DNA from: a virus
Taxonomy: Duplodnaviria > Heunggongvirae > Uroviricota > Caudoviricetes
Length of the DNA stretch: 9,039 nucleotides
Reading direction: 5' to 3' (one strand)
Virus record (IMG/VR): IMGVR_UViG_2645727555_000009
Location: 1 to 9,039 of that record
The position numbers and the translations under genes are program-made. The notes under the pieces were generated by a model. The model was not told the origin of the DNA. It did no database searches and saw only the letters and a list, made by a program, of their open reading frames with translations. Position 1 is the stretch's first letter, and each line of letters opens with the position of its first letter. Shown here one piece after another: positions 68 to 9,039 of the stretch.

Positions 68-223
68 TTACTCCTCAGGTTCGTAAACTGTGAAGACAGC
101 GACCTCCGTCTGGCCGGTTCGGATTCGTACCTCGCAGAGGTCTTTCCTCGTTACCAGTGCCGTCACTATGACGGTTAAACAGATGACGATCAGGGCGATT
201 AACATCGCCTTTTGCTGCTTCAT
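68..223 (-). CDS. hokD: Hok/Gef family type I membrane toxin (HokD/RelF-like), 51 aa
   Basis: Translation from the internal ATG at 223 gives MKQQKAMLIALIVICLTVIVTALVTRKDLCEVRIRTGQTEVAVFTVYEPEE: a hydrophobic transmembrane helix followed by the conserved Hok periplasmic motif (RKxLCEVRIRTGQTEVA). It matches my recollection of E. coli HokD/RelF closely. AAGGAG lies 7 nt upstream of this ATG. The provided 70-aa ORF (68..280) is an in-frame upstream extension that may be a mok-like leader frame. Paralogue assignment is from memory, not a search. Confidence 0.85.
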   Translation of the reverse strand: MKQQKAMLIALIVICLTVIVTALVTRKDLCEVRIRTGQTEVAVFTVYEPEE

Positions 224-514
224 AGCCTGCTTCTCCTTGCCTTTCGGCACGTAAGAGGCTAACCTAGATTTGCCGTTCATAGATTGAGCCTCAGATTAAT
301 GTTAAGCGTCTTGCAGGACGCGTAATGTTAACTGGGGCTTTTCTCTATCTGCCTTTTGGTATTCATGCCTGAGACAGATAGCCTCAAGCACCCGCAGCAA
401 TTCTACTTAACTATCCTTTCCCCGCAAATCGTTTTTATCCCCAGCGACAAATCGAATACACCACCAGCGCCACCGCCATTGCGATCCCTACCGTTGTGAA
501 TGCCTCAGGCCAGG

Positions 515-2689: not shown

Positions 2690-2982
2690 TGAGCCACCTC
2701 CTGATAAATCACCGCATGCCCCAGTTTCTCCGCCAGTGCCAGCTCTGCCTTAGCGCCCGCTGACCGCTGCCAGCCATTCAGCATGTAAATCGCATCCACA
2801 CAACGAATCATTGCCATGCAAATATCCATGTAGTGCGGCTGTGTCAGCCCGTCCGGAAGTACTGCCGGGTTTAAGACGGTATGCCCTTCCCGTTTCAGTT
2901 CCTCTTCCGCCTTGTGAAACGCCTCACGGTTGAAATTTTCATATCCCGTCATTGGACCGGCAATATAAACTCTCACCCTCAC
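2686..2982 (-). CDS. DUF4406-like protein (nucleoside 2-deoxyribosyltransferase-like fold), about 98 aa
   Basis: Proposed GTG start at 2982, with AGGAGG 8 nt upstream and overlapping the upstream stop. The N-terminal motif VRVYIAGPMTGYENFN…VLNP is what I recall for DUF4406/NDT-like proteins. The provided ORF (to 3051) is probably over-extended at the 5' end. Confidence 0.55.
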   Translation of the reverse strand: MRVRVYIAGPMTGYENFNREAFHKAEEELKREGHTVLNPAVLPDGLTQPHYMDICMAMIRCVDAIYMLNGWQRSAGAKAELALAEKLGHAVIYQEVAQ

Positions 2983-3371
2983 TCCATCACCTCCTGAAAG
3001 TTTCCCCGATAGAACGCCAGCACACGCTGCATAACCTCGCTCTGGCGGCACTCACGACAAATTATGTTCTGCCATCTGTTGTAACGACGTATTTCTCCGT
3101 CAGGTAACTTTCGAATCAGTGTCGGGTCAGCAGCCTTCTCCGGTGTCTTACGCCATACGCGATACGCCTGCTCTGATGGAAATACCCCGCAATCAGAGAG
3201 CCAGACATCACCACAGGCCGCAAGCGCACCAGATAAACGACGAATAGCGGTCTTACTGACACCCGTTTTATCTGCCAGTTGTCGAAAAGTTTCTCGTCCG
3301 CTCAGGCGCACGAATTCCACAATGCGCGCCTTCACTTCTTCCCGCTCTTCCTGTGTAAATACTCTTGCCAT
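2979..3371 (-). CDS. Hypothetical helix-turn-helix protein (about 130 aa)
   Basis: ATG at 3371 preceded by GGAGGT; the longer ORF to 3386 begins with TTG and is less likely. HTH-like segment RETFRQLADKTGVSKTAIRRLSGAL, plus a CxxC near the C-terminus (ICRECRQ). Confidence 0.55.
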   Translation of the reverse strand: MARVFTQEEREEVKARIVEFVRLSGRETFRQLADKTGVSKTAIRRLSGALAACGDVWLSDCGVFPSEQAYRVWRKTPEKAADPTLIRKLPDGEIRRYNRWQNIICRECRQSEVMQRVLAFYRGNFQEVME

Positions 3372-3386
3372 AAGTACCTCCGGCAA

Positions 3387-4157
3387 TCACTTTTCCGACA
3401 CAATACGACTGGAGGAATCGACAATCTGTCGAACAATATCCTGGTGCTTGTTCAGCTCACGCAGCGCAGCACAGACTCGCTCCCACTTCTGAACCTGACC
3501 TTTTGCCCGGCGCAGTTCGCGGTTAGCCACATGCAGCGATGGTAAAATCAGACTATCCGGATGCTTTCTGGTGAACGACGGCTGTGACTGCACTGTGACC
3601 GCCACACTTTCAGTTTTAATTTCTTCCTGTGTTTCCGCTTCCCGGACTGGTAACGCAACACCTGCTGGCTGAGGAAAGGCTTTACCATCGGTTTCCGTTA
3701 CCGATGCAGCTTCCGGCTCTGCCGGTAAATCAGCGCCCGGTATGCAGTAACGAAATTTACCGTTCTGATTTACGCGTGCCAGGCGCCCCGTTGCTGTTAC
3801 GACCGCCAACGTGGAAGCAACCTTGCGAATGCTAACACCGAACTTATCCGCCACTTCCTCACACGTTTTAGCCCCATCCTGACAGATAAACTCAATCATC
3901 ATGTCCGCGGTAACTTTTTGTTCGACCTCCCCGGTCAGCACATCCGGTACTTCAGACTGTGCTGGCTGCTCTTCGGTTACCCCGGATTCACCTTCACCAG
4001 CCAGAAACCAGGTGTGACCCGTTTTATCAACAACGCCATTTTTTTTGAGTTCCCACAGTTCGTTGAGAACTTCTTCACGGCTGATATCAAGCCGCGCCGC
4101 CAGTTCAACAGAATTGGCTTTACCCATCGCTTTCAGTGCATGCAATACGGTTTCCAT
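3387..4157 (-). CDS. Hypothetical phage protein with two winged-helix-like modules separated by acidic linkers (256 aa)
   Basis: GGAGGAAG Shine-Dalgarno before the ATG at 4157. Residues 1-45 ([37 protein letters not shown]) and about 85-135 ([33 protein letters not shown]) both resemble wHTH DNA-binding modules, separated by E/Q/T-rich low-complexity linkers. Confidence 0.6.
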
Positions 4158-4186: not shown

Positions 4187-4927
4187 TCAGTTCCTGTGCT
4201 GGCTGACGTTCGGACGCCAGCTCTCCCAGTTAAACGTCACCCAGCGACCACCGTTCATGACCATGCGGTCCATCACACGCTCGCCAAGAAGCGTACTCAT
4301 CGCTACGTGGTTCAGGTTCGTCAGCATTCCGACACTACGCATCGAAGCCGTTCTGCGGTCGACTATCTGGTTCAGTGTGACCTGCTCGTTGCGCGTATCC
4401 CGCTGCATTCCGATTTCATCCAGGACAAGCAGGTCAACATCACACAACCCCTGTAAAAATTTTTCGCCTGAGTTTTTGTTGTCGTAGCTGTTGTGTAACG
4501 CCAGCATCACATCAGCCACCGTTATCACAATCACGCTGCGACCTTTCGCCAGAAGATGATTGCCAATGGCGGCTGCAAGGTGGTTCTTTCCGGTACCCGG
4601 CTTACCGCTGAACACAAAATTCGTGCACCCTGTCATCAGTTCGTCAGCGATGGATTTTGCCTGGCTCAGCGCATGTTTTTGCCCGTCGTTCTGCACCTGA
4701 TAATTCGCAAACGAGCATTTGCTGTGCAGAGGCTGGATGCCCGAACGATTCAGGATTTTTTCCACCCGCAACTGGCGATTCTGGCGGTTGATCTCCTCGC
4801 TACGTTTTCGCCCTTCTGCCAGTTGCCACTCGCGCCACTCGTCCACTGTCCGGTACGGCGCGATTACATGCTGCGGGGTCAGCTTACGGATACGCTCAAG
4901 AACACCACCTGTCGCGATATTTTTCAT
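4187..4927 (-). CDS. DnaC-like AAA+ helicase loader (phage P-protein functional analogue; YdaV/IstB-like ATPase)
   Basis: Walker [16 protein letters not shown] and Walker [10 protein letters not shown], 246 aa, AGGGGGTAA Shine-Dalgarno, lying immediately downstream of the initiator gene. Confidence 0.85.
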
Positions 4928-4933
4928 GGCCCG

Positions 4934-5899
4934 TTACCCCCTGAACCCCGGCGGAATTTCGGTATCCGGCTCAGAAATATGATTCACGCAACGCTGTACA
5001 GACGAACGCCCCAGGCGGATAACCAGTTCATCCCATTTTTCGCGAAGCTTTGACGGACTCATGATATTTTTTACCCAGAATGGATCCCGCTGCGCCCGAC
5101 CAAACATTTCACAAATTTGTCTGTGAGTTCTGCCATCCAGCATCCGCATTGTGCGCACGTCGTTGGCCCATGCGGTCCAGTTGGGTTCTTTCGGTCGCGA
5201 AATCTCGCCATCATCGCTGGCGGCCTGCTCGTAAAGACTCACGATTCGTCCCCAGATCCACTGCGCACACGCCAAATCTTCCTGGTTGCCCCACTGGCGT
5301 TTTTTTGCACTGAACACAACCGCGTCAGGGTGTCGGGTTAAAAAATCCTGTTCAACCGTCTGCGGGTCCGGTTGCGAAGCTTCCGGACGAGAAGTGTTTT
5401 TATTCTCTGTAGTAATCTCTGTTGTATTCTCTGTAAGATCATCAGGCCATTTTGACCCGATGACATTGAGTCGTTTTGAACCAATGGAACGTGCCATTTT
5501 GGCCCCTTCCATCGTGTCATTCTGACCTGATGGAGCAGCGCATTTTGACCTGATGGATTCGCTCACTTTGCCACCATTTAAAAGCTCGCTCTCGTAATTA
5601 ATCGTGTAAAAATTAGTCATATCACGCTTTGATTTATTGAGCTTTTCGCAACGCAAAAGCCCCAGCGTTTTCAGACTTGCAAATGCGCGTTTTAACGTTG
5701 ACTCTGACCAGAACGGGAACTGCTCCAGCCATTGTTCTGTTGTGTTATAAATCCAGCGAACACCATCACATTCCATGCCGGAACCGGTATCTCTCAACCA
5801 GTAATGCAACTGCTGCAACACGATGGCTTCGTTCAGACCAATTTTCATCGCCAGCTGCGTGTTTATAACCAGCGGACGTTCAGCAAAAAGGAGCTTCAT
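4934..5899 (-). CDS. Phage replication initiation protein (lambda O-like / YdaU-like), with the origin iterons inside the coding sequence
   Basis: Long ORF upstream of the DnaC-like gene. ATG at 5899 (MKLLFAERP…); the provided ORF extends to a TTG at 5923 that overlaps the ydaT stop. Five iterons lie inside the coding sequence, encoding the repeated IGSK peptide. The C-terminus is the type typically fused to helicase-loader-recruiting initiators. Confidence 0.75.
   Translation of the reverse strand: MKLLFAERPLVINTQLAMKIGLNEAIVLQQLHYWLRDTGSGMECDGVRWIYNTTEQWLEQFPFWSESTLKRAFASLKTLGLLRCEKLNKSKRDMTNFYTINYESELLNGGKVSESIRSKCAAPSGQNDTMEGAKMARSIGSKRLNVIGSKWPDDLTENTTEITTENKNTSRPEASQPDPQTVEQDFLTRHPDAVVFSAKKRQWGNQEDLACAQWIWGRIVSLYEQAASDDGEISRPKEPNWTAWANDVRTMRMLDGRTHRQICEMFGRAQRDPFWVKNIMSPSKLREKWDELVIRLGRSSVQRCVNHISEPDTEIPPGFRG
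5448..5558. repeat. Putative phage replication origin: five iterons (consensus CATTTTGACCTGATGGA) with about 23-bp periodicity, followed by a moderately AT-rich segment (5560..5640)
   Basis: Iteron starts at 5448, 5472, 5495, 5518 and 5541 (spacing 24/23/23/23). The two best copies are CATTCTGACCTGATGGA (5518..5534) and CATTTTGACCTGATGGA (5541..5557). The layout matches a lambda-type origin embedded in the O gene. Confidence 0.7.
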
Positions 5900-5908
5900 C
5901 CCCCCCCC
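5900..5908. repeat. Homopolymeric tract (C9 on plus, G9 on the coding strand) directly abutting the initiator ATG
   Basis: Nine consecutive C at 5900..5908. On the minus strand this is GGGGGGGGG immediately 5' of the ATG at 5899, or inside the coding sequence if the TTG at 5923 is the start. Confidence 0.9.
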
Positions 5909-5919
5909 AGAACACGTTA

Positions 5920-6345
5920 TCAATGCGCCACCACGGCATTTCCCGCCGGACCACCACGATTCATCTGATCGAACAACACGATCGCTGCCGCAACAAACTC
6001 ATCGATATCTTTCACCAGGCGCTCCCGTCGCTCGACAAGCTCCCGGTGATATTCCGAACTGTGGCTGCGCATTCGGGCCACCAGTGGAGGCGGCATTGCT
6101 TTTTCGATCGCCGGTAACAACGCCTGAATTTTTTTAACCGCATCAGGGGTGTCTTTTTCTACCCAGCGGAAAATTTTCTGGGTATTACGAGACAGGGCTT
6201 CCGGATGGCTGTCGTCATACAGTTCAGGAAACGTCATACCCAACTCAAAATAAGCCTGGGTTATTCCAGCTACTGGAACTTTTTCGCCATCAGGACGCGC
6301 CCAGGCATTCATTGCCATGCGGATGTGTTCATGCTTGATTTTCAT
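5920..6345 (-). CDS. ydaT: YdaT-like protein (proposed cII functional analogue of Rac/CP-933P-type prophages), 141 aa
   Basis: Sits second in the rightward operon, directly after the Cro-like gene and before the replication genes. Its size and N-terminus (MKIKHEHIRMAMNAW…) fit my recollection of the YdaT family. Family assignment is from memory. Confidence 0.55.
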   Translation of the reverse strand: MKIKHEHIRMAMNAWARPDGEKVPVAGITQAYFELGMTFPELYDDSHPEALSRNTQKIFRWVEKDTPDAVKKIQALLPAIEKAMPPPLVARMRSHSSEYHRELVERRERLVKDIDEFVAAAIVLFDQMNRGGPAGNAVVAH

Positions 6346-6604
6346 GAATCACCCCCGCCTCTGGTTGTGTGTTAGCCTGATACTCGACAGGTAAGCCGTC
6401 GGTTGGGTTGGGATAAGTACTGCCATCAATCTCGTGCGGAGTTACTATCCAGCCTGTTGCTTCGCACCAGCGTAAAATTTTTTTCCCCGTAAGTTTCGCC
6501 CGTCCGGTAATGACATGGCTTACCATCCCTTGGGTTACCCCAACAATTTCAGCAAAATGCTTCTGAGTTATACCGGAATGATGCAAATATTCTCCAAGAT
6601 TCAT
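6329..6604 (-). CDS. ydaS: Cro-like HTH regulator (YdaS/DicC-type), 91 aa
   Basis: First gene of the rightward operon, divergent from the repressor gene. HTH segment ITQKHFAEIVGVTQGMVSHV; GAGGTGA Shine-Dalgarno 5 nt before the ATG at 6604. Confidence 0.65.
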   Translation of the reverse strand: MNLGEYLHHSGITQKHFAEIVGVTQGMVSHVITGRAKLTGKKILRWCEATGWIVTPHEIDGSTYPNPTDGLPVEYQANTQPEAGVIHENQA

Positions 6605-6634: not shown

Positions 6635-6676
6635 TTAATAGCATTGTTATTTTTAAAAGTAAATAGCATCACTATT
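6635..6676. promoter_or_regulatory. Operator pair (OR-like) in the divergent promoter region: two 17-bp sites of type AATAG-N5-CTATT, centres 25 bp apart
   Basis: Site 1 TAATAGCATTGTTATTT (6635..6651) and site 2 AAATAGCATCACTATTT (6660..6676). Both are internally palindromic and match a third copy at 7759..7775. They overlap candidate minus-strand promoter hexamers: TTGAAA / TTTAAA and TTTACT / TATTAA. Confidence 0.6.
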
Positions 6677-6711
6677 TCAAAGAGATTAATAATCTTATTA
6701 GAATTGAAGGT

Positions 6712-7212
6712 ATGAAAAGAAAATCCCTGTCAGAGATCGACCTGCAAGCCGCCCAGAGACTGAAAGAAATCTGGACGGCGAAAAAAAATCAACTAGGGTT
6801 AACCCAAGAGCGTGCGGCAGAAATTCTGGGATTTTCGACACAGGGAGCTGTAAGCCATTATCTAAATGGTCAGACACCTTTAAATCTTGAGGCTGTTATC
6901 AAGTTCGCAGGGTTGCTGCAAGTTCCTCCCGAGTCAATCAGACCAGATATGGCCGAGTTGTTACAAATTGTAAGGATGTATCCCCAAGAATCTGGGGAGG
7001 ACAATGTTGTCACTATATCTGCAGATATGGAACAATCGGAAAACGAACTTCCGTTTAATATAGACCCCATGGAGCGGGATTTGCTCCAGACGTTCAGGGC
7101 TTTCCCCAAAGAAGATAAAGAGAAAATGCTTAAGGAAATGAAGGAGAAAAAAGAATCAATTGAAGAAATCGTTGCGCGATGGCTAGCTGCGCAAAAGGGT
7201 CGTCGCGCCTAA
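6712..7212 (+). CDS. paaR2: Prophage repressor at the cI position (PaaR2-like HTH_XRE regulator), 166 aa, lacking a LexA/S24 autocleavage domain
   Basis: N-terminal HTH (LGLTQERAAEILGFSTQGAVSHYLNG), divergent from the Cro-like gene. The C-terminus is E/K-rich with no Ser-Lys peptidase motif. It is followed by an antitoxin/toxin pair, as in the O157:H7 paaR2-paaA2-parE2 locus. The gene symbol is a recollection-based assignment. Confidence 0.6.
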   Translation: MKRKSLSEIDLQAAQRLKEIWTAKKNQLGLTQERAAEILGFSTQGAVSHYLNGQTPLNLEAVIKFAGLLQVPPESIRPDMAELLQIVRMYPQESGEDNVVTISADMEQSENELPFNIDPMERDLLQTFRAFPKEDKEKMLKEMKEKKESIEEIVARWLAAQKGRRA

Positions 7213-7229: not shown

Positions 7230-7421
7230 ATGAGTACAGCCCTTTCCCCGATAATTTCTGAATTTGAAACAGTCGAACAAGAAAACAGCTATAACGAATG
7301 GTTGCGAACCAAAGTGGCAGCAAGCCTCTCAGATCCCCGTCCTGCAATTCCACATGACGAAGTAATGGCTGAAATGGAAAACCTTATTGCTCAATTAGCT
7401 GCAACGAACAGGAGTGAGTAA
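7230..7421 (+). CDS. paaA2: Small antitoxin of a ParE-type toxin-antitoxin module (PaaA2-like), 63 aa
   Basis: Strong GAGGAGG Shine-Dalgarno; 63 aa, acidic; its stop overlaps the toxin start (TAATG). Size, position and sequence (…SEFETVEQENSYNEWLR…PRPAIPHDEV…) fit my recollection of PaaA2. Confidence 0.6.
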   Translation: MSTALSPIISEFETVEQENSYNEWLRTKVAASLSDPRPAIPHDEVMAEMENLIAQLAATNRSE

Positions 7422-7711
7422 TGCTGCCCATTTTATGGCTACCTTCTGCACGTGATGATTTACGTCAGATCGTAGCCTATATTGCTAAGGAAAACCCTCC
7501 CGCTGCACGTAGACTAAAAATACGCATTGAAACATCAGTTTTGTCACTTACTGAACACCCTTATCTGTACCCACCGAGCGAAAGAGTTCCAAGTCTTCGT
7601 GAGATAGTGACTCATCCTAACTACATAATACTTTACCGAGTAACAGCATCTAACATCGAGATCGTAAATGTAGTTCACTCACGAAGACAGTATCCAAACA
7701 AAACCTGTTAA
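7421..7711 (+). CDS. parE2: ParE/RelE-superfamily toxin (ParE2-like), 96 aa
   Basis: Translationally coupled to the upstream antitoxin by a 1-nt overlap. The sequence has the ParE-family pattern (…LRQIVAYIAKENPPAARRL…YRVTASNIEIVNVVHSRR). Confidence 0.7.
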   Translation: MLPILWLPSARDDLRQIVAYIAKENPPAARRLKIRIETSVLSLTEHPYLYPPSERVPSLREIVTHPNYIILYRVTASNIEIVNVVHSRRQYPNKTC

Positions 7712-8854: not shown

Positions 8855-8912
8855 TTTCTGGTGACGTTTGGCGGTATCAGTTTTACTCCGTGGCTGCTCT
8901 GCCGCCCTTTTT
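8855..8912 (+). ncRNA. dicF: DicF small RNA (prophage-encoded inhibitor of ftsZ translation) with its intrinsic terminator
   Basis: TTTCTGGTGACGTTTGGCGGTATCAGTTTTACTCCGTGGCTGCTCTGCCGCCCTTTTT matches my recollection of E. coli DicF with about one substitution. A GGCGG…CCGCC terminator stem is followed by a T5 run. It lies downstream of ydfC as in the Qin dicB operon. Confidence 0.8.
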
Positions 8913-9039
8913 AAAGTGAATTTTGTGATGCGGTGAATGCGGCTCAGCGCACGCGGAACAGTTAAAACCAAAAACAGTGTTATGGGTGGATTCTCTGTAT
9001 CCGGCGTTAATTGTTAACTGGTTAACGTCACCTGGAGGC

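What the first reader, a model, noticed from the sequence alone, without database searches (positions are those of the whole stretch)
4187..6604. Complete cro / cII-analogue / O-like / DnaC-like early-right module with the origin iterons inside the initiator gene
The gene order YdaS (Cro-like), YdaT, initiator and DnaC-like loader is tightly coupled, with ATGA/TTGA overlaps and 6-nt gaps. The initiator gene contains five 17-18-bp iterons at a period of about 23 bp (5448..5558) next to a more AT-rich stretch, the hallmark of a lambda-type origin. The replication module therefore looks intact rather than decayed, unlike the Qin remnant I recall from E. coli K-12, so the prophage may be replication-competent.
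Basis: partly seen in the sequence, partly recalled or inferred. Interest (0 to 1): 0.5.

Follow-up and report, generated by a model that had tools for sequence, protein, structure and literature searches.

The report
Prophage replication origin inside initiator gene
This is an intact lambda-style prophage replication module whose origin (six abutting 23-bp binding sites plus a conserved 12-bp repeat) lies inside the initiator gene; the layout is ordinary, but the 12-bp repeat is shared by related phage initiators across bacterial phyla and I found no description of it.

Summary
On the minus strand lie a Cro-like HTH gene (6604..6329), a YdaT/CII-like gene (6345..5920), an initiator (5899..4934) and a DnaC-like loader (4927..4187, 82% identical to Rac YdaV). 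Five clear repeats and one weak one, period 23 nt, occupy 5586..5448. This is the strongest periodicity in the window (0 of 2000 codon shuffles reach it).

The repeats act at DNA level. The period is not a multiple of three. Each unit is an imperfect palindrome. Third-codon variability falls to 23% there, against 54% elsewhere. Homologues from Klebsiella to Staphylococcus keep the same layout, and the repeat sequence co-varies with the N-terminal winged-helix domain.

Corrections:
- The initiator is a chimera. Its C-domain is homologous to lambda O, but its N-domain is neither lambda O nor YdaU type.
- The claimed ATGA and TTGA overlaps are not real.
- The unwinding candidate lies downstream, at 5434..5399: three 12-mers, ACAGAGANTACW.
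- About half of the closest relatives lack the DnaC-like gene.

The regulatory half is the known CP-933P/Rac type. The module is a new member of a known kind. The 12-mer array is constrained as DNA across phyla and accompanies many different iteron types. That is the one possibly new point.

The parts
6712..7212 (+). cI-like repressor (HTH_3 plus a DicA-like C-terminus), transcribed divergently. It is followed by a RelB/ParE-type toxin-antitoxin pair, as in paaR2-paaA2-parE2 of CP-933P.
   Evidence: Pfam HTH_3 E 1e-9. NCBIfam DicA C-terminal match. Annotation of 96-97% identical E. coli loci. Gene layout as described in PMC8630535.
6605..6711 (.). Divergent promoter/operator region (GC 0.22-0.29) holding a 23-nt direct repeat, AATAGCAT..., at 25-nt spacing.
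   Evidence: Composition. Repeats. One promoter-like match on the + strand at 6676-6704, which is no more than chance gives. Not analysed further.
6329..6604 (-).
   Evidence: Pfam HTH_3 E 9e-6, with no other family but HTH_31 at E <= 0.01. phrog_35 E 4e-20. No BLASTP similarity to K-12 YdaS.
5920..6345 (-). YdaT family protein, the CII analogue (141 aa).
   Evidence: PF06254 E 3e-10. phrog_163 'CII-like' E 3.5e-47. 31% identical to Rac YdaT. Function known from PMC9986795 and PMC8630535.
6335..6352 (.). YdaT operator-like inverted repeat, TTGATTTTCATGAATCAC, at the end of the cro-like gene and the start of ydaT.
   Evidence: One mismatch to the published OM site 5'-TTGATTN6AATCAA-3', which lies at the end of ydaS in CP-933P. 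The match count alone is not above chance; the agreement in position is what counts.
5900..5908 (-). G9 homopolymer immediately upstream of the initiator ATG. It is probably part of the ribosome-binding site.
   Evidence: Sequence. Its length varies among relatives (G9, G10, G14, interrupted forms).
4934..5899 (-). Initiator gene (321 aa; ATG at 5899, stop codon at 4936..4934).
   Evidence: ORF. An identical CDS is annotated 'phage replication protein O' in RefSeq. phrog_391 E 9e-96. No Pfam family at E <= 0.01.
5570..5899 (-). N-terminal winged-helix domain (residues 1-110), the presumed iteron-binding domain.
   Evidence: AlphaFold2 pLDDT 72-93, helix/strand pattern of a winged helix. Best Foldseek matches are the plasmid RepA N-terminal domain 4pql and the Rep-DNA complex 5kbj (E 0.03-0.08, probability 1.0, TM 0.5). 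At least 1831 clusters of homologues, none with a Pfam domain.
5448..5586 (-). Iteron array: six abutting 23-nt units. Each is an imperfect palindrome, CCATCAGGTCA-AAA-TGACCTGATGG. Cores: R0 5579..5564 (weak), R1 5557..5541, R2 5534..5518, R3 5511..5495, R4 5488..5472, R5 5465..5448. The right arm of R5 runs on to 5437.
   Evidence: sequence; significance; constraint independent of codon position; conserved in distant homologues; co-variation with the N-domain.
5399..5434 (-). Three tandem 12-mers, ACAGAGAATACA / ACAGAGATTACT / ACAGAGAATAAA (family consensus ACAGAGANTACW). This is the candidate DNA-unwinding and helicase-loading element.
   Evidence: TRF. 4 matches in the window against 0.21 expected, three of them here and a fourth, unrelated one-mismatch match at 8988-8998. 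Least stable 40-mer of the gene. DNA-level codon bias. Consensus from 385 units. Found next to many iteron types.
5009..5356 (-). C-terminal domain (residues 182-297), homologous to the lambda O C-domain and to DnaD-like phage proteins.
   Evidence: BLASTP against lambda O: 35% identity, E 9e-28. tblastn to lambda-type O genes and to Bacillus and Lactobacillus 'DnaD-like' genes. PHROGs 2514, 1701 and 4880.
4937..4975 (-). C-terminal tail ...SEPDTEIPPGFRG, also found at the C-terminus of E. coli DnaT and of Rac YdaU.
   Evidence: PDB sequence search: DnaT chains 2ru8, 6aep and 9zbt (E 0.008-0.03). NCBIfam DnaT residues 158-179. YdaU tail 59% identical.
4187..4927 (-). DnaC-like AAA+ helicase loader (246 aa), orthologue of Rac YdaV. 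It starts 6 nt after the initiator stop codon.
   Evidence: NCBIfam PRK12377, 496 bits (cut-off 389). The DnaC equivalog model scores 315 bits, below its cut-off of 357. phrog_50 E 2e-83. 82% identical to YdaV, with Walker A GKPGTGKN and Walker B LLVLDEIG intact.

Best explanation
The window holds the early-right operon of a lambdoid (CP-933P/Rac/Qin-like) prophage. A theta-type replication origin is embedded in the part of the initiator gene that encodes the disordered linker between its two domains.

Proposed sequence of events (inferred):
1. When the cI-like repressor is lost, rightward transcription produces the Cro analogue, the CII analogue YdaT, the initiator and the DnaC-like loader.
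2. Dimers of the initiator's N-terminal winged-helix domain bind the six abutting 23-bp palindromic iterons (5586..5448).
3. The resulting nucleoprotein complex destabilises the adjacent 12-mer array (5434..5399), the least stable DNA in the gene.
4. The lambda-O-like C-domain and its DnaT-like tail bring in host DnaB, either with the phage's YdaV-type DnaC paralogue or with host DnaC.

Shown here: the anatomy; the statistical reality of the repeats; DNA-level rather than protein-level constraint on both repeat classes; conservation and co-variation across homologues; domain homologies; the predicted fold and the disordered linker.

Inferred by analogy with lambda O/ori-lambda, SPP1 G38P/oriL, staphylococcal phage 80-alpha ORF20/21 and RepA_N plasmids: binding, melting, helicase loading and actual firing.
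For: - Repeats are real. Lag-23 autocorrelation is 0.565, the top value in the window, and 0 of 2000 codon shuffles reach it.
- Repeats are DNA-level. A 23-nt period rotates the reading frame, so the same DNA encodes ESIRSKC, APSGQND and so on. Variable third positions number 15 of 66 inside the repeats against 138 of 256 outside (p = 7e-6), and the usual excess of third-position change is lost.
- The layout is the same in Klebsiella, Pantoea, Pseudomonas and Staphylococcus phages and in most of 80 species-level genomes, where the best lag is 22-24.
- Iteron classes track residues of the helix and wing of the N-domain: GGTCAAAATG with ..STLKR..RDMT..; GGGCAAnTTGCCC with ..DTVKRAL..HDRT..; GGACAAnTTGTCC with ..GKTIQR..HDQT...
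- The N-domain is confidently modelled as a winged helix. Residues 110-181, encoded by the iterons and 12-mers, are disordered. The nearest solved folds are plasmid RepA N-domains.
- The C-domain is homologous to that of lambda O. Lambda's own iterons occupy the equivalent place at a 20-24-nt period.
- 12-mers. In T-E-x-T motifs Thr is ACA in 115 of 117 cases (background 22%) and Glu is GAG in 115 of 117 (background 46%). ACAGAGA is 146-fold enriched, and off-frame copies exist. The array is the least stable 36-mer of the surrounding 1 kb in 99 of 141 loci.
- The loader is intact and is a YdaV orthologue.
- Isolated phages carry the same initiator, for example PhiR42_1 at 93.5% identity. So does a 43.7-kb circular replicon for which PLSDB gives no replicon type.
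- In 80-alpha, an analogous organiser plus a DnaC-like gene suffice for autonomous replication, with the origin inside the organiser gene (PMC5499656; GenBank rep_origin feature).
Against: - No experiment on this element or on any close relative was found.
- The N-domain has no curated family. Its fold match to RepA N-domains is weak by E-value (0.03).
- The third and fourth iterons are degenerate.
- Co-variation was read by eye from sorted consensus sequences and was not tested against phylogeny.
- The promoter scan gives no support for any particular transcriptional-activation scheme.
- The 12-mers are only moderately AT-rich (about 67% A+T). Their strict sequence conservation is more than a purely thermodynamic unwinding element needs, so their role may differ from the one assigned here.
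- Half of the relatives lack the DnaC-like gene, so its part in the mechanism is uncertain.
Confidence: 0.8

Rival explanations
1. The repeats are ordinary coding repeats, a low-complexity protein linker that grew by slippage, and have no function as DNA.
For: They encode a region predicted to be disordered. The 12-mer copy number varies from 3 to 5 among close relatives, as slippage would produce. The 12-mers are read in the ACA-GAG phase in 117 of 120 loci.
Against: - A 23-nt period cannot be a peptide repeat, and the encoded peptides differ between units.
- Third-codon positions are as constrained as first and second positions.
- In the 12-mer, the invariant bases include all third positions of codons 1-3, while the variable base is a second codon position.
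- Thr and Glu codon choice is 98% fixed against backgrounds of 22% and 46%, in hosts from 31% to 63% GC.
- The iterons are palindromes.
Confidence: 0.03
2. The iterons are binding sites for the initiator but serve autoregulation, copy control or incompatibility (a roadblock or handcuffing role). The true origin lies elsewhere in the prophage.
For: Iterons serve such roles in plasmids (established knowledge). Only 9 kb of the prophage is visible.
Against: - The array is always followed at a fixed distance by the least stable DNA of the region.
- The arrangement matches ori-lambda within O and the putative origin annotated in the 80-alpha GenBank record.
- Initiators of this family occur without any other replication gene nearby.
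- The two roles are not mutually exclusive.
Confidence: 0.08
3. The conserved 12-mer array is above all a recombination junction: a stretch of shared DNA that allows N-terminal (origin-specific) and C-terminal (loader-specific) modules to be shuffled. It is not an unwinding element.
For: It sits exactly at the boundary between exchangeable modules. One N-domain type occurs with lambda-O-like, Phg_2220_C, DnaB_2/DnaD-like and other C-domains, and one C-domain type occurs with different N-domains, for example in SfIV.
Against: - 24-60 bp of homology would not by itself be kept invariant across Proteobacteria, Firmicutes, Campylobacterota and Chloroflexota while the flanks diverge below 50% amino-acid identity.
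- It coincides with the stability minimum.
- Shuffling could be a by-product of a conserved functional element.
Confidence: 0.1
4. The module is a cryptic, no longer firing remnant. It looks intact only because it was acquired recently, or because its products are kept for another use.
For: CP-933P, Rac and Qin relatives are defective prophages (PMC9986795). In some relatives an IS3-family element interrupts the initiator within the 12-mers (L048, L051).
Against: - Domain-coding parts show the pattern of purifying selection: third-position diversity of 0.1-0.3 against 0.00-0.07 at first and second positions in most 30-nt bins.
- All motifs are intact.
- Identical or near-identical copies occur in many genomes.
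- Isolated phages carry the same initiator.
Confidence: 0.25

Closest known systems
Bacteriophage lambda O protein, ori-lambda and the P loader
   Same: - The origin lies inside the initiator gene, in the linker-coding segment.
- The iterons are palindromic. Lambda has four at a 20-24-nt period; here there are six at 23 nt.
- A low-stability region lies directly downstream in the direction of the gene.
- The C-domain is homologous (35% identity, E 9e-28).
- The gene order is cro, cII analogue, initiator, loader.
   Different: - The N-terminal DNA-binding domain is unrelated by sequence. PF04492 does not match here, although it matches lambda O itself at 5.7e-36.
- The loader is a DnaC-type AAA+ protein, not lambda P.
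- The units abut without spacers.
- The downstream element is a strict 12-mer repeat rather than a plain AT-rich stretch.
- The protein ends in a DnaT-like tail.
Rac prophage ydaS-ydaT-ydaU-ydaV (E. coli K-12) and CP-933P paaR2-paaA2-parE2/ydaS/ydaT
   Same: - Same operon design.
- The loader is 82% identical to YdaV.
- YdaT family member (31% identical), with the published operator motif at the cro/ydaT junction.
- Repressor followed by a RelB/ParE-type toxin-antitoxin pair, as in CP-933P.
   Different: - The initiator is not YdaU. YdaU has a DUF1376 N-domain and different repeats, and only the last 22 residues match.
- The Cro analogue shows no similarity to K-12 YdaS.
Replisome organisers of Gram-positive phages (SPP1 G38P/oriL; 80-alpha ORF20 with the DnaC-like ORF21)
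   Same: - The organiser gene carries its own origin (iterons, then an AT-rich stretch) and is followed by a loader.
- In 80-alpha, ORF20 and ORF21 suffice for autonomous replication (PMC5499656; GenBank rep_origin).
- Staphylococcal phages of the StauST398-3 type share this window's N-domain (46% identity), the iteron core GGACAAAATGG and ACAGAGA motifs.
   Different: - 80-alpha ORF20 itself is not detectably similar by BLASTP.
- Its iterons and its AT-rich repeat (ACTAATAAT-like) differ.
RepA_N plasmid initiators (pSK41/pTZ2162 RepA; PDB 4pql, 5kbj)
   Same: These are the best structural matches to the N-domain. From my own knowledge of the family, they are winged-helix initiators whose iterons lie within the rep gene and whose C-domain is host-specific.
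   Different: The fold match is weak (E 0.03, TM 0.54, 14-16% identity). There is no sequence-level relationship, and the downstream partners differ.

Membership tests
Lambda-type origin (origin embedded in the initiator gene) | An array of at least four iterons inside the initiator ORF, in the segment that encodes the inter-domain linker | tested here: met
   Six units at gene positions 314-452 (residues 105-151). AlphaFold2 models residues 110-181 as disordered.
Lambda-type origin (origin embedded in the initiator gene) | Each iteron has dyad symmetry, as expected for binding by a dimer | tested here: met
   In R2 the right arm matches the reverse complement of the left arm at 9 of 11 positions, and in R5 at 7 of 9. 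R0, R1, R3 and R4 are weaker. In the Pantoea class the 23-mer GATGAGGGCAA-A-TTGCCCTCATC is a near-perfect palindrome.
Lambda-type origin (origin embedded in the initiator gene) | An easily melted region directly downstream of the iterons | tested here: met
   The least stable 40-mer of the gene is 5436..5397. The same holds in 99 of 141 related loci.
Lambda-type origin (origin embedded in the initiator gene) | The initiator binds the iterons and the fragment supports autonomous replication | not testable with these tools
   Only indirect support: co-variation of iteron class with N-domain residues, and family members on circular replicons of about 40 kb with no other replicon type given.
Lambda O protein family | N-terminal Phage_rep_O domain (PF04492) | tested here: not met
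   No match even at E <= 10, whereas lambda O scores 5.7e-36 in the same call.
Lambda O protein family | C-terminal (P-interacting) domain homologous to that of lambda O | tested here: met
   BLASTP: 35% identity over 148 residues, E 9e-28.
YdaU (DUF1376) initiators of Rac | DUF1376 N-terminal domain | tested here: not met
   YdaU matches PF07120 at 2.7e-26 and the window protein does not. Only the C-terminal 22 residues align.
DnaC/YdaV helicase loaders | AAA+ fold of the IstB/DnaC type, above the curated cut-off, with intact Walker motifs | tested here: met
   NCBIfam PRK12377, 496 bits (cut-off 389). The DnaC equivalog model scores 315 bits, below its cut-off of 357, so this is a paralogue and not DnaC itself. 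Walker A and B motifs are present and the protein is 82% identical to YdaV.
YdaT (CII-analogue) family | PF06254 domain, plus the TTGATTN6AATCAA operator at the cro/ydaT junction | tested here: met
   PF06254, 40.7 bits (cut-off 21). Operator-like site with one mismatch at 6335-6352.
   Only HTH_3 and HTH_31 match at E <= 0.01. There is no BLASTP alignment with K-12 YdaS. The protein is a positional Cro analogue only.
RepA_N-like winged-helix initiators | The N-domain fold superposes on the RepA N-terminal domain | tested here: inconclusive
   4pql and 5kbj are the top Foldseek hits with probability 1.0, but with E 0.03-0.08 and TM 0.47-0.54. The profile search of PDB sequences gave only non-significant PadR-like hits.

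The most novel reading that the evidence does not exclude
The tandem 12-mer ACAGAGANTACW (2-5 copies, usually 3) may be a so far undescribed, sequence-specific second component of the origins of a very large superfamily of phage, prophage and phage-plasmid initiators.

What supports this:
- It is kept almost base for base from Enterobacteria to Staphylococcus, Bacillus, Campylobacterota and Chloroflexota.
- Meanwhile the neighbouring iterons, the N-terminal DNA-binding domains and the C-terminal domains all change.
- Its conservation goes well beyond what AT-richness requires.

This points to recognition by something common to all these systems. Candidates are the single-stranded form of the element bound by the initiator, or a universal host replication factor such as the DnaB-family helicase, the primase or RNA polymerase (for an R-loop). 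It would then be the actual helicase-loading or priming site.
Probability: 0.4. Interest if true: 0.65.

Novelty: new member of a known kind. Interest (0 to 1): 0.42.

Why it matters
As stated, the finding is an ordinary intact lambdoid replication module. Its regulatory half (cI-like repressor with a toxin-antitoxin pair, Cro analogue, YdaT) has already been characterised in CP-933P and Rac.

Three things are useful beyond that:
1. **An uncurated initiator family.** The initiator belongs to a large family with no Pfam or NCBIfam model, and NCBI mostly labels its members 'hypothetical protein'. The origin can now be placed to the base pair (5586..5399). That helps prophage annotation, prediction of which prophages are replication-competent, and the design of phage-derived replicons.
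2. **Recognition rules.** The co-variation between iteron class and N-domain residues gives a ready data set for working out how these proteins recognise their sites.
3. **A testable candidate element.** The 12-mer array is conserved across phyla and is independent of iteron type. It is a concrete candidate for the least understood step of phage origin firing, namely where and how the duplex opens and the helicase is loaded.

Tried and rejected
- **Pfam and NCBIfam on the initiator.** No family matched. The only hit was the DnaT tail.
- **Sequence searches of the PDB.** A single-sequence search and a search with a 63-sequence N-domain profile gave only the DnaT tail and non-significant PadR-like hits.
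- **Orthology with Rac YdaU.** Rejected.
- **Homology with 80-alpha ORF20.** Rejected at BLASTP level.
- **Upstream AT-rich stretch (5640..5560) as the unwinding element.** Rejected. It encodes the conserved end of the N-domain and shows normal third-position variation.
- **The DnaT-like tail marks initiators paired with a phage DnaC-like gene.** Not supported. In the species-level set, 0 of 11 tailed initiators had a DnaC-like gene within 400 nt downstream. The window and Rac do have both.
- **The 12-mers are specific to this N-domain family.** Rejected. 41 of 120 IMG/VR loci holding the 12-mer pair lack the N-domain at E <= 1e-3. Five of these have too little upstream sequence to judge, one looks like an unrelated coding repeat in a giant-virus contig (L190), and most of the rest show other iteron arrays. 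Their N-parts fall in PHROG initiator families that the window protein also matches, so they are probably remote relatives.
- **Rfam, tRNA and promoter/terminator scans.** Nothing in 4187-6604.
- **Literature.** A full-text search for the 12-mer sequences returned only unrelated primers. Weigel and Seitz 2006, the main review of phage replication modules, is not held in the library, so prior description cannot be excluded.

Full report
**1. What is in the sequence**

The region 4187-6604 holds four intact minus-strand genes:
- a 91-aa HTH_3 protein (6604..6329);
- a 141-aa YdaT family protein (6345..5920; PF06254, phrog_163 'CII-like');
- a 321-aa initiator (ATG at 5899, stop codon at 4936..4934; phrog_391 'replication initiation O-like', E 9e-96, but no Pfam family);
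- a 246-aa DnaC-like ATPase (4927..4187; NCBIfam PRK12377, 496 bits).

A cI-like repressor gene (6712..7212) is transcribed divergently across an AT-rich intergenic region.

- The cro-like and ydaT ORFs overlap by 17 nt.
- The TTGA overlap needs a TTG start at 5923. RefSeq annotation of an identical gene and the N-termini of all homologues do not support that start. With the ATG at 5899 there is a 20-nt gap that ends in a G9 run.
- The 6-nt gap before the loader gene is correct.

**2. The repeats are real and act as DNA**

On the coding strand, five clear units of consensus tCCATCaGGTCAAAATG lie at 5557..5448 with a 23-nt period. A sixth, degenerate unit lies at 5579..5564. Lag-23 autocorrelation over 5450-5587 is 0.565. 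That is the highest value for any lag from 10 to 40 anywhere in the window, and no codon shuffle out of 2000 reaches it.

Because 23 is not a multiple of three, the same DNA is read in different frames in successive units. Each 23-mer is an imperfect palindrome, CCATCAGGTCA-AAA-TGACCTGATGG, and the units abut.

Among 52 distinct close relatives (90-100% DNA identity, IMG/VR and E. coli), third-codon sites are variable in 23% of positions within the repeats and in 54% elsewhere (p = 7e-6). The normal excess of third-position change disappears.

**3. A second repeat class downstream**

Directly after the right arm of the last iteron come three 12-mers at 5434..5399: ACAGAGAATACA, ACAGAGATTACT and ACAGAGAATAAA. 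This is the least stable 40-mer of the whole gene.

The AT-rich stretch on the other side (5640..5560) encodes the conserved end of the N-domain and varies normally at third positions. I therefore take the downstream array to be the counterpart of lambda's AT-rich region. In lambda that region also lies downstream of the iterons in the direction of O.

**4. What the initiator is**

It is a chimera.
- **C-domain.** Residues 147-294 align with lambda O residues 135-270 (35% identity, E 9e-28).
- **N-domain.** Residues 1-110 do not match the lambda O N-domain family, which lambda O itself matches at 5.7e-36. They do not match Rac YdaU (DUF1376) either.
- **Relatives of the N-domain.** It is 45-60% identical to the N-domains of initiators from Klebsiella, Pantoea, Pseudomonas and Staphylococcus phages, and to proteins in at least 1831 clusters, none with a Pfam domain.
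- **Structure.** AlphaFold2 models residues 1-110 confidently as a winged helix and residues 110-181 as disordered. The disordered stretch is exactly the part encoded by the iterons and 12-mers. The best solved-structure matches are plasmid RepA N-terminal domains and a Rep-DNA complex, with weak E-values.
- **Tail.** The last 13 residues, SEPDTEIPPGFRG, match the C-terminus of E. coli DnaT and of YdaU. The role of that tail is not established in the DnaT literature I could read.

**5. Comparative test of the origin reading**

In four phages whose N-domains are 46-60% identical, the same layout recurs:
- Klebsiella Kp4886-3 has six units of CATCAGGTCAAAATG at 23 nt, followed by ACAGAGAATACA x3.
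- Pantoea AH07 has five palindromes, GATGAGGGCAAATTGCCCTCATC, at 23 nt, followed by the same 12-mers.
- Pseudomonas 8P has GGGCAA-type units and ACAGAGACTACA x2.
- Staphylococcus StauST398-3 has GGACAAAATGG units at 22-23 nt, followed by ACAGAGA motifs.

In 79 species-level loci scanned, from Enterobacteria to Bacillus, Campylobacterales, Desulfuromonas and Thermomicrobiales, the best local periodicity is 22-24 nt in most, and ACAGAGA follows at 12-nt spacing. The iteron class changes together with residues of the predicted recognition helix and wing. That is the pattern expected if this domain reads the iterons. I did not test it against phylogeny.

**6. The 12-mers are constrained as DNA, not as peptide**

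- In 117 T-E-x-T motifs from 83 distinct loci, Thr is ACA in 115 (background 22%) and Glu is GAG in 115 (background 46%).
- ACAGAGA is 146-fold enriched over the rest of the loci.
- A few copies lie in another frame.
- The consensus from 385 units in 122 distinct arrays is ACAGAGANTACW. The variable bases are position 8, which is a second codon position, and position 12. All the other third positions are fixed. Part of this conservation reflects how the arrays were selected.
- The array is the stability minimum of the surrounding 1 kb in 99 of 141 loci, and in 51 of 56 loci with GC of 0.5 or more.

**7. The 12-mers are not tied to one iteron type**

In 79 of them the N-domain profile matches just upstream. 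In 41 it does not. Five of the 41 have too little upstream sequence to judge, and one (L190, a giant-virus contig) looks like an unrelated coding repeat. Most of the others show quite different iteron arrays ending right at the first 12-mer.

The N-parts of those ORFs are winged-helix proteins. They fall in PHROG 'replication initiation' families that the window protein also matches, so they are probably remote relatives.

The C-parts are diverse. Phg_2220_C matches in 35 of 93, DnaT-like in 2, DnaB_2 in 1, and the rest, including the lambda-O-like type, have no Pfam family.

So the 12-mer array is the most conserved feature of these origins. It is more conserved than the proteins or the iterons. 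A full-text search for its sequence found no phage paper. The main review of phage replication modules is not held, so I cannot exclude an earlier description.

**8. The loader and the regulatory half**

- The loader is 82% identical to Rac YdaV and has intact Walker motifs.
- It is optional in this lineage. Of the 80 closest relatives of the initiator, 37 have it directly downstream and 38 do not.
- The isolated phage PhiR42_1 has an initiator 93.5% identical and no loader gene.
- Among the diverse loci, initiators with the DnaT-like tail had no DnaC-like gene downstream. It is therefore possible that the tail lets the initiator use the host DnaB-DnaC complex. This is conjecture.
- The YdaT gene, the operator-like site TTGATTTTCATGAATCAC at 6335-6352, and the repressor followed by a RelB/ParE-type pair match the characterised CP-933P immunity region. 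This part is already known.

**9. Intactness**

- All four genes are full length.
- The domain-coding parts of the initiator show the pattern of purifying selection.
- Identical copies exist in other genomes.
- Family members occur on circular, non-mobilizable replicons of about 40 kb. For the one record examined, PLSDB gives no replicon type.
- Whether this prophage can replicate cannot be decided from a 9-kb window.

**10. Verdict**

The module is a new member of a known kind: an origin embedded in the initiator gene, as in lambda, SPP1, 80-alpha and RepA_N plasmids. The only part that may be new is the 12-mer array, which is conserved across phyla and independent of iteron type.

Noticed in passing
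window 5900-5908 (minus strand G9), and L004-L083: The homopolymeric G tract that abuts the initiator ATG varies in length among relatives that have ydaT upstream: G9, G10, G14, G10AGG, G8AGGGG. The protein database also holds 448-aa proteins that carry the YdaT Pfam domain and align over 99% of the initiator (P0004, P0005, P0008). Slippage in this tract could modulate or phase-vary initiator translation.
   Followed up: partly
L051 2979-4290 and L048 (IMG/VR relatives); equivalent to window about 5423: An IS3-family element (two-ORF transposase of 108 and 296 aa; inverted-repeat end TGTGAACCGCCCCGGG...) is inserted between the first and second 12-mers. It splits both the initiator gene and the origin.
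   Followed up: partly
window 5399-5434; L014, L038, L090: The 12-mer copy number varies among otherwise 94-98% identical genes (3, 4 or 5 copies). Across the family it ranges from 2 to 5.
   Followed up: yes
window 4937-4975 (minus strand): The initiator's C-terminal tail, SEPDTEIPPGFRG, is nearly the same as the C-terminus of E. coli DnaT and of Rac YdaU. Variants (PAGFRS, PHGFRG) end many related initiators. In the diverse set, tailed initiators had no phage DnaC-like gene downstream.
   Followed up: partly
window 68-393 (minus strand): A hok/sok-type toxin-antitoxin locus: Rfam sok at 218-393 (112 bits), overlapping a 70-aa ORF at 68-280 that I take to be the hok-like toxin by position. 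The ORF itself was not tested.
   Followed up: no
window 8856-8907 (+ strand): A DicF small RNA (Rfam RF00039, 75 bits) lies downstream of small ORFs in the positions that ydfA, ydfB and ydfC occupy in K-12 Qin and in the related locus L001. The leftward operon is therefore of the Qin dicB type.
   Followed up: no
window 7230-7711 (+ strand): Two small ORFs of 63 and 96 aa follow the repressor gene. In 96-97% identical E. coli loci they are annotated as a RelB antitoxin and a RelE/ParE toxin. This matches the paaR2-paaA2-parE2 three-gene arrangement of CP-933P.
   Followed up: partly
L088 2627-2790 (Shigella phage SfIV): SfIV's initiator shares this window's C-terminal part (46% identity over query residues 67-321). 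It has a different N-domain and a different array, six 15-nt units of GTCAAAATCTGAC type, and no ACAGAGA 12-mers. This is a clear case of module exchange at the linker.
   Followed up: partly
L293 4347-4637 (E. coli K-12 Qin, ydfX): ydfX of Qin is a truncated YdaT homologue, aligning with the first 83 of the 141 residues of the window's YdaT at 36% identity. Qin's early-right operon therefore ends inside the cII analogue.
   Followed up: yes
window 3387-4157 and 2979-3386 (minus strand): The genes downstream of the loader encode DUF1627 and DUF977 proteins with several weak HTH matches. They appear to belong to the same rightward transcription unit. Their function is unknown.
   Followed up: no
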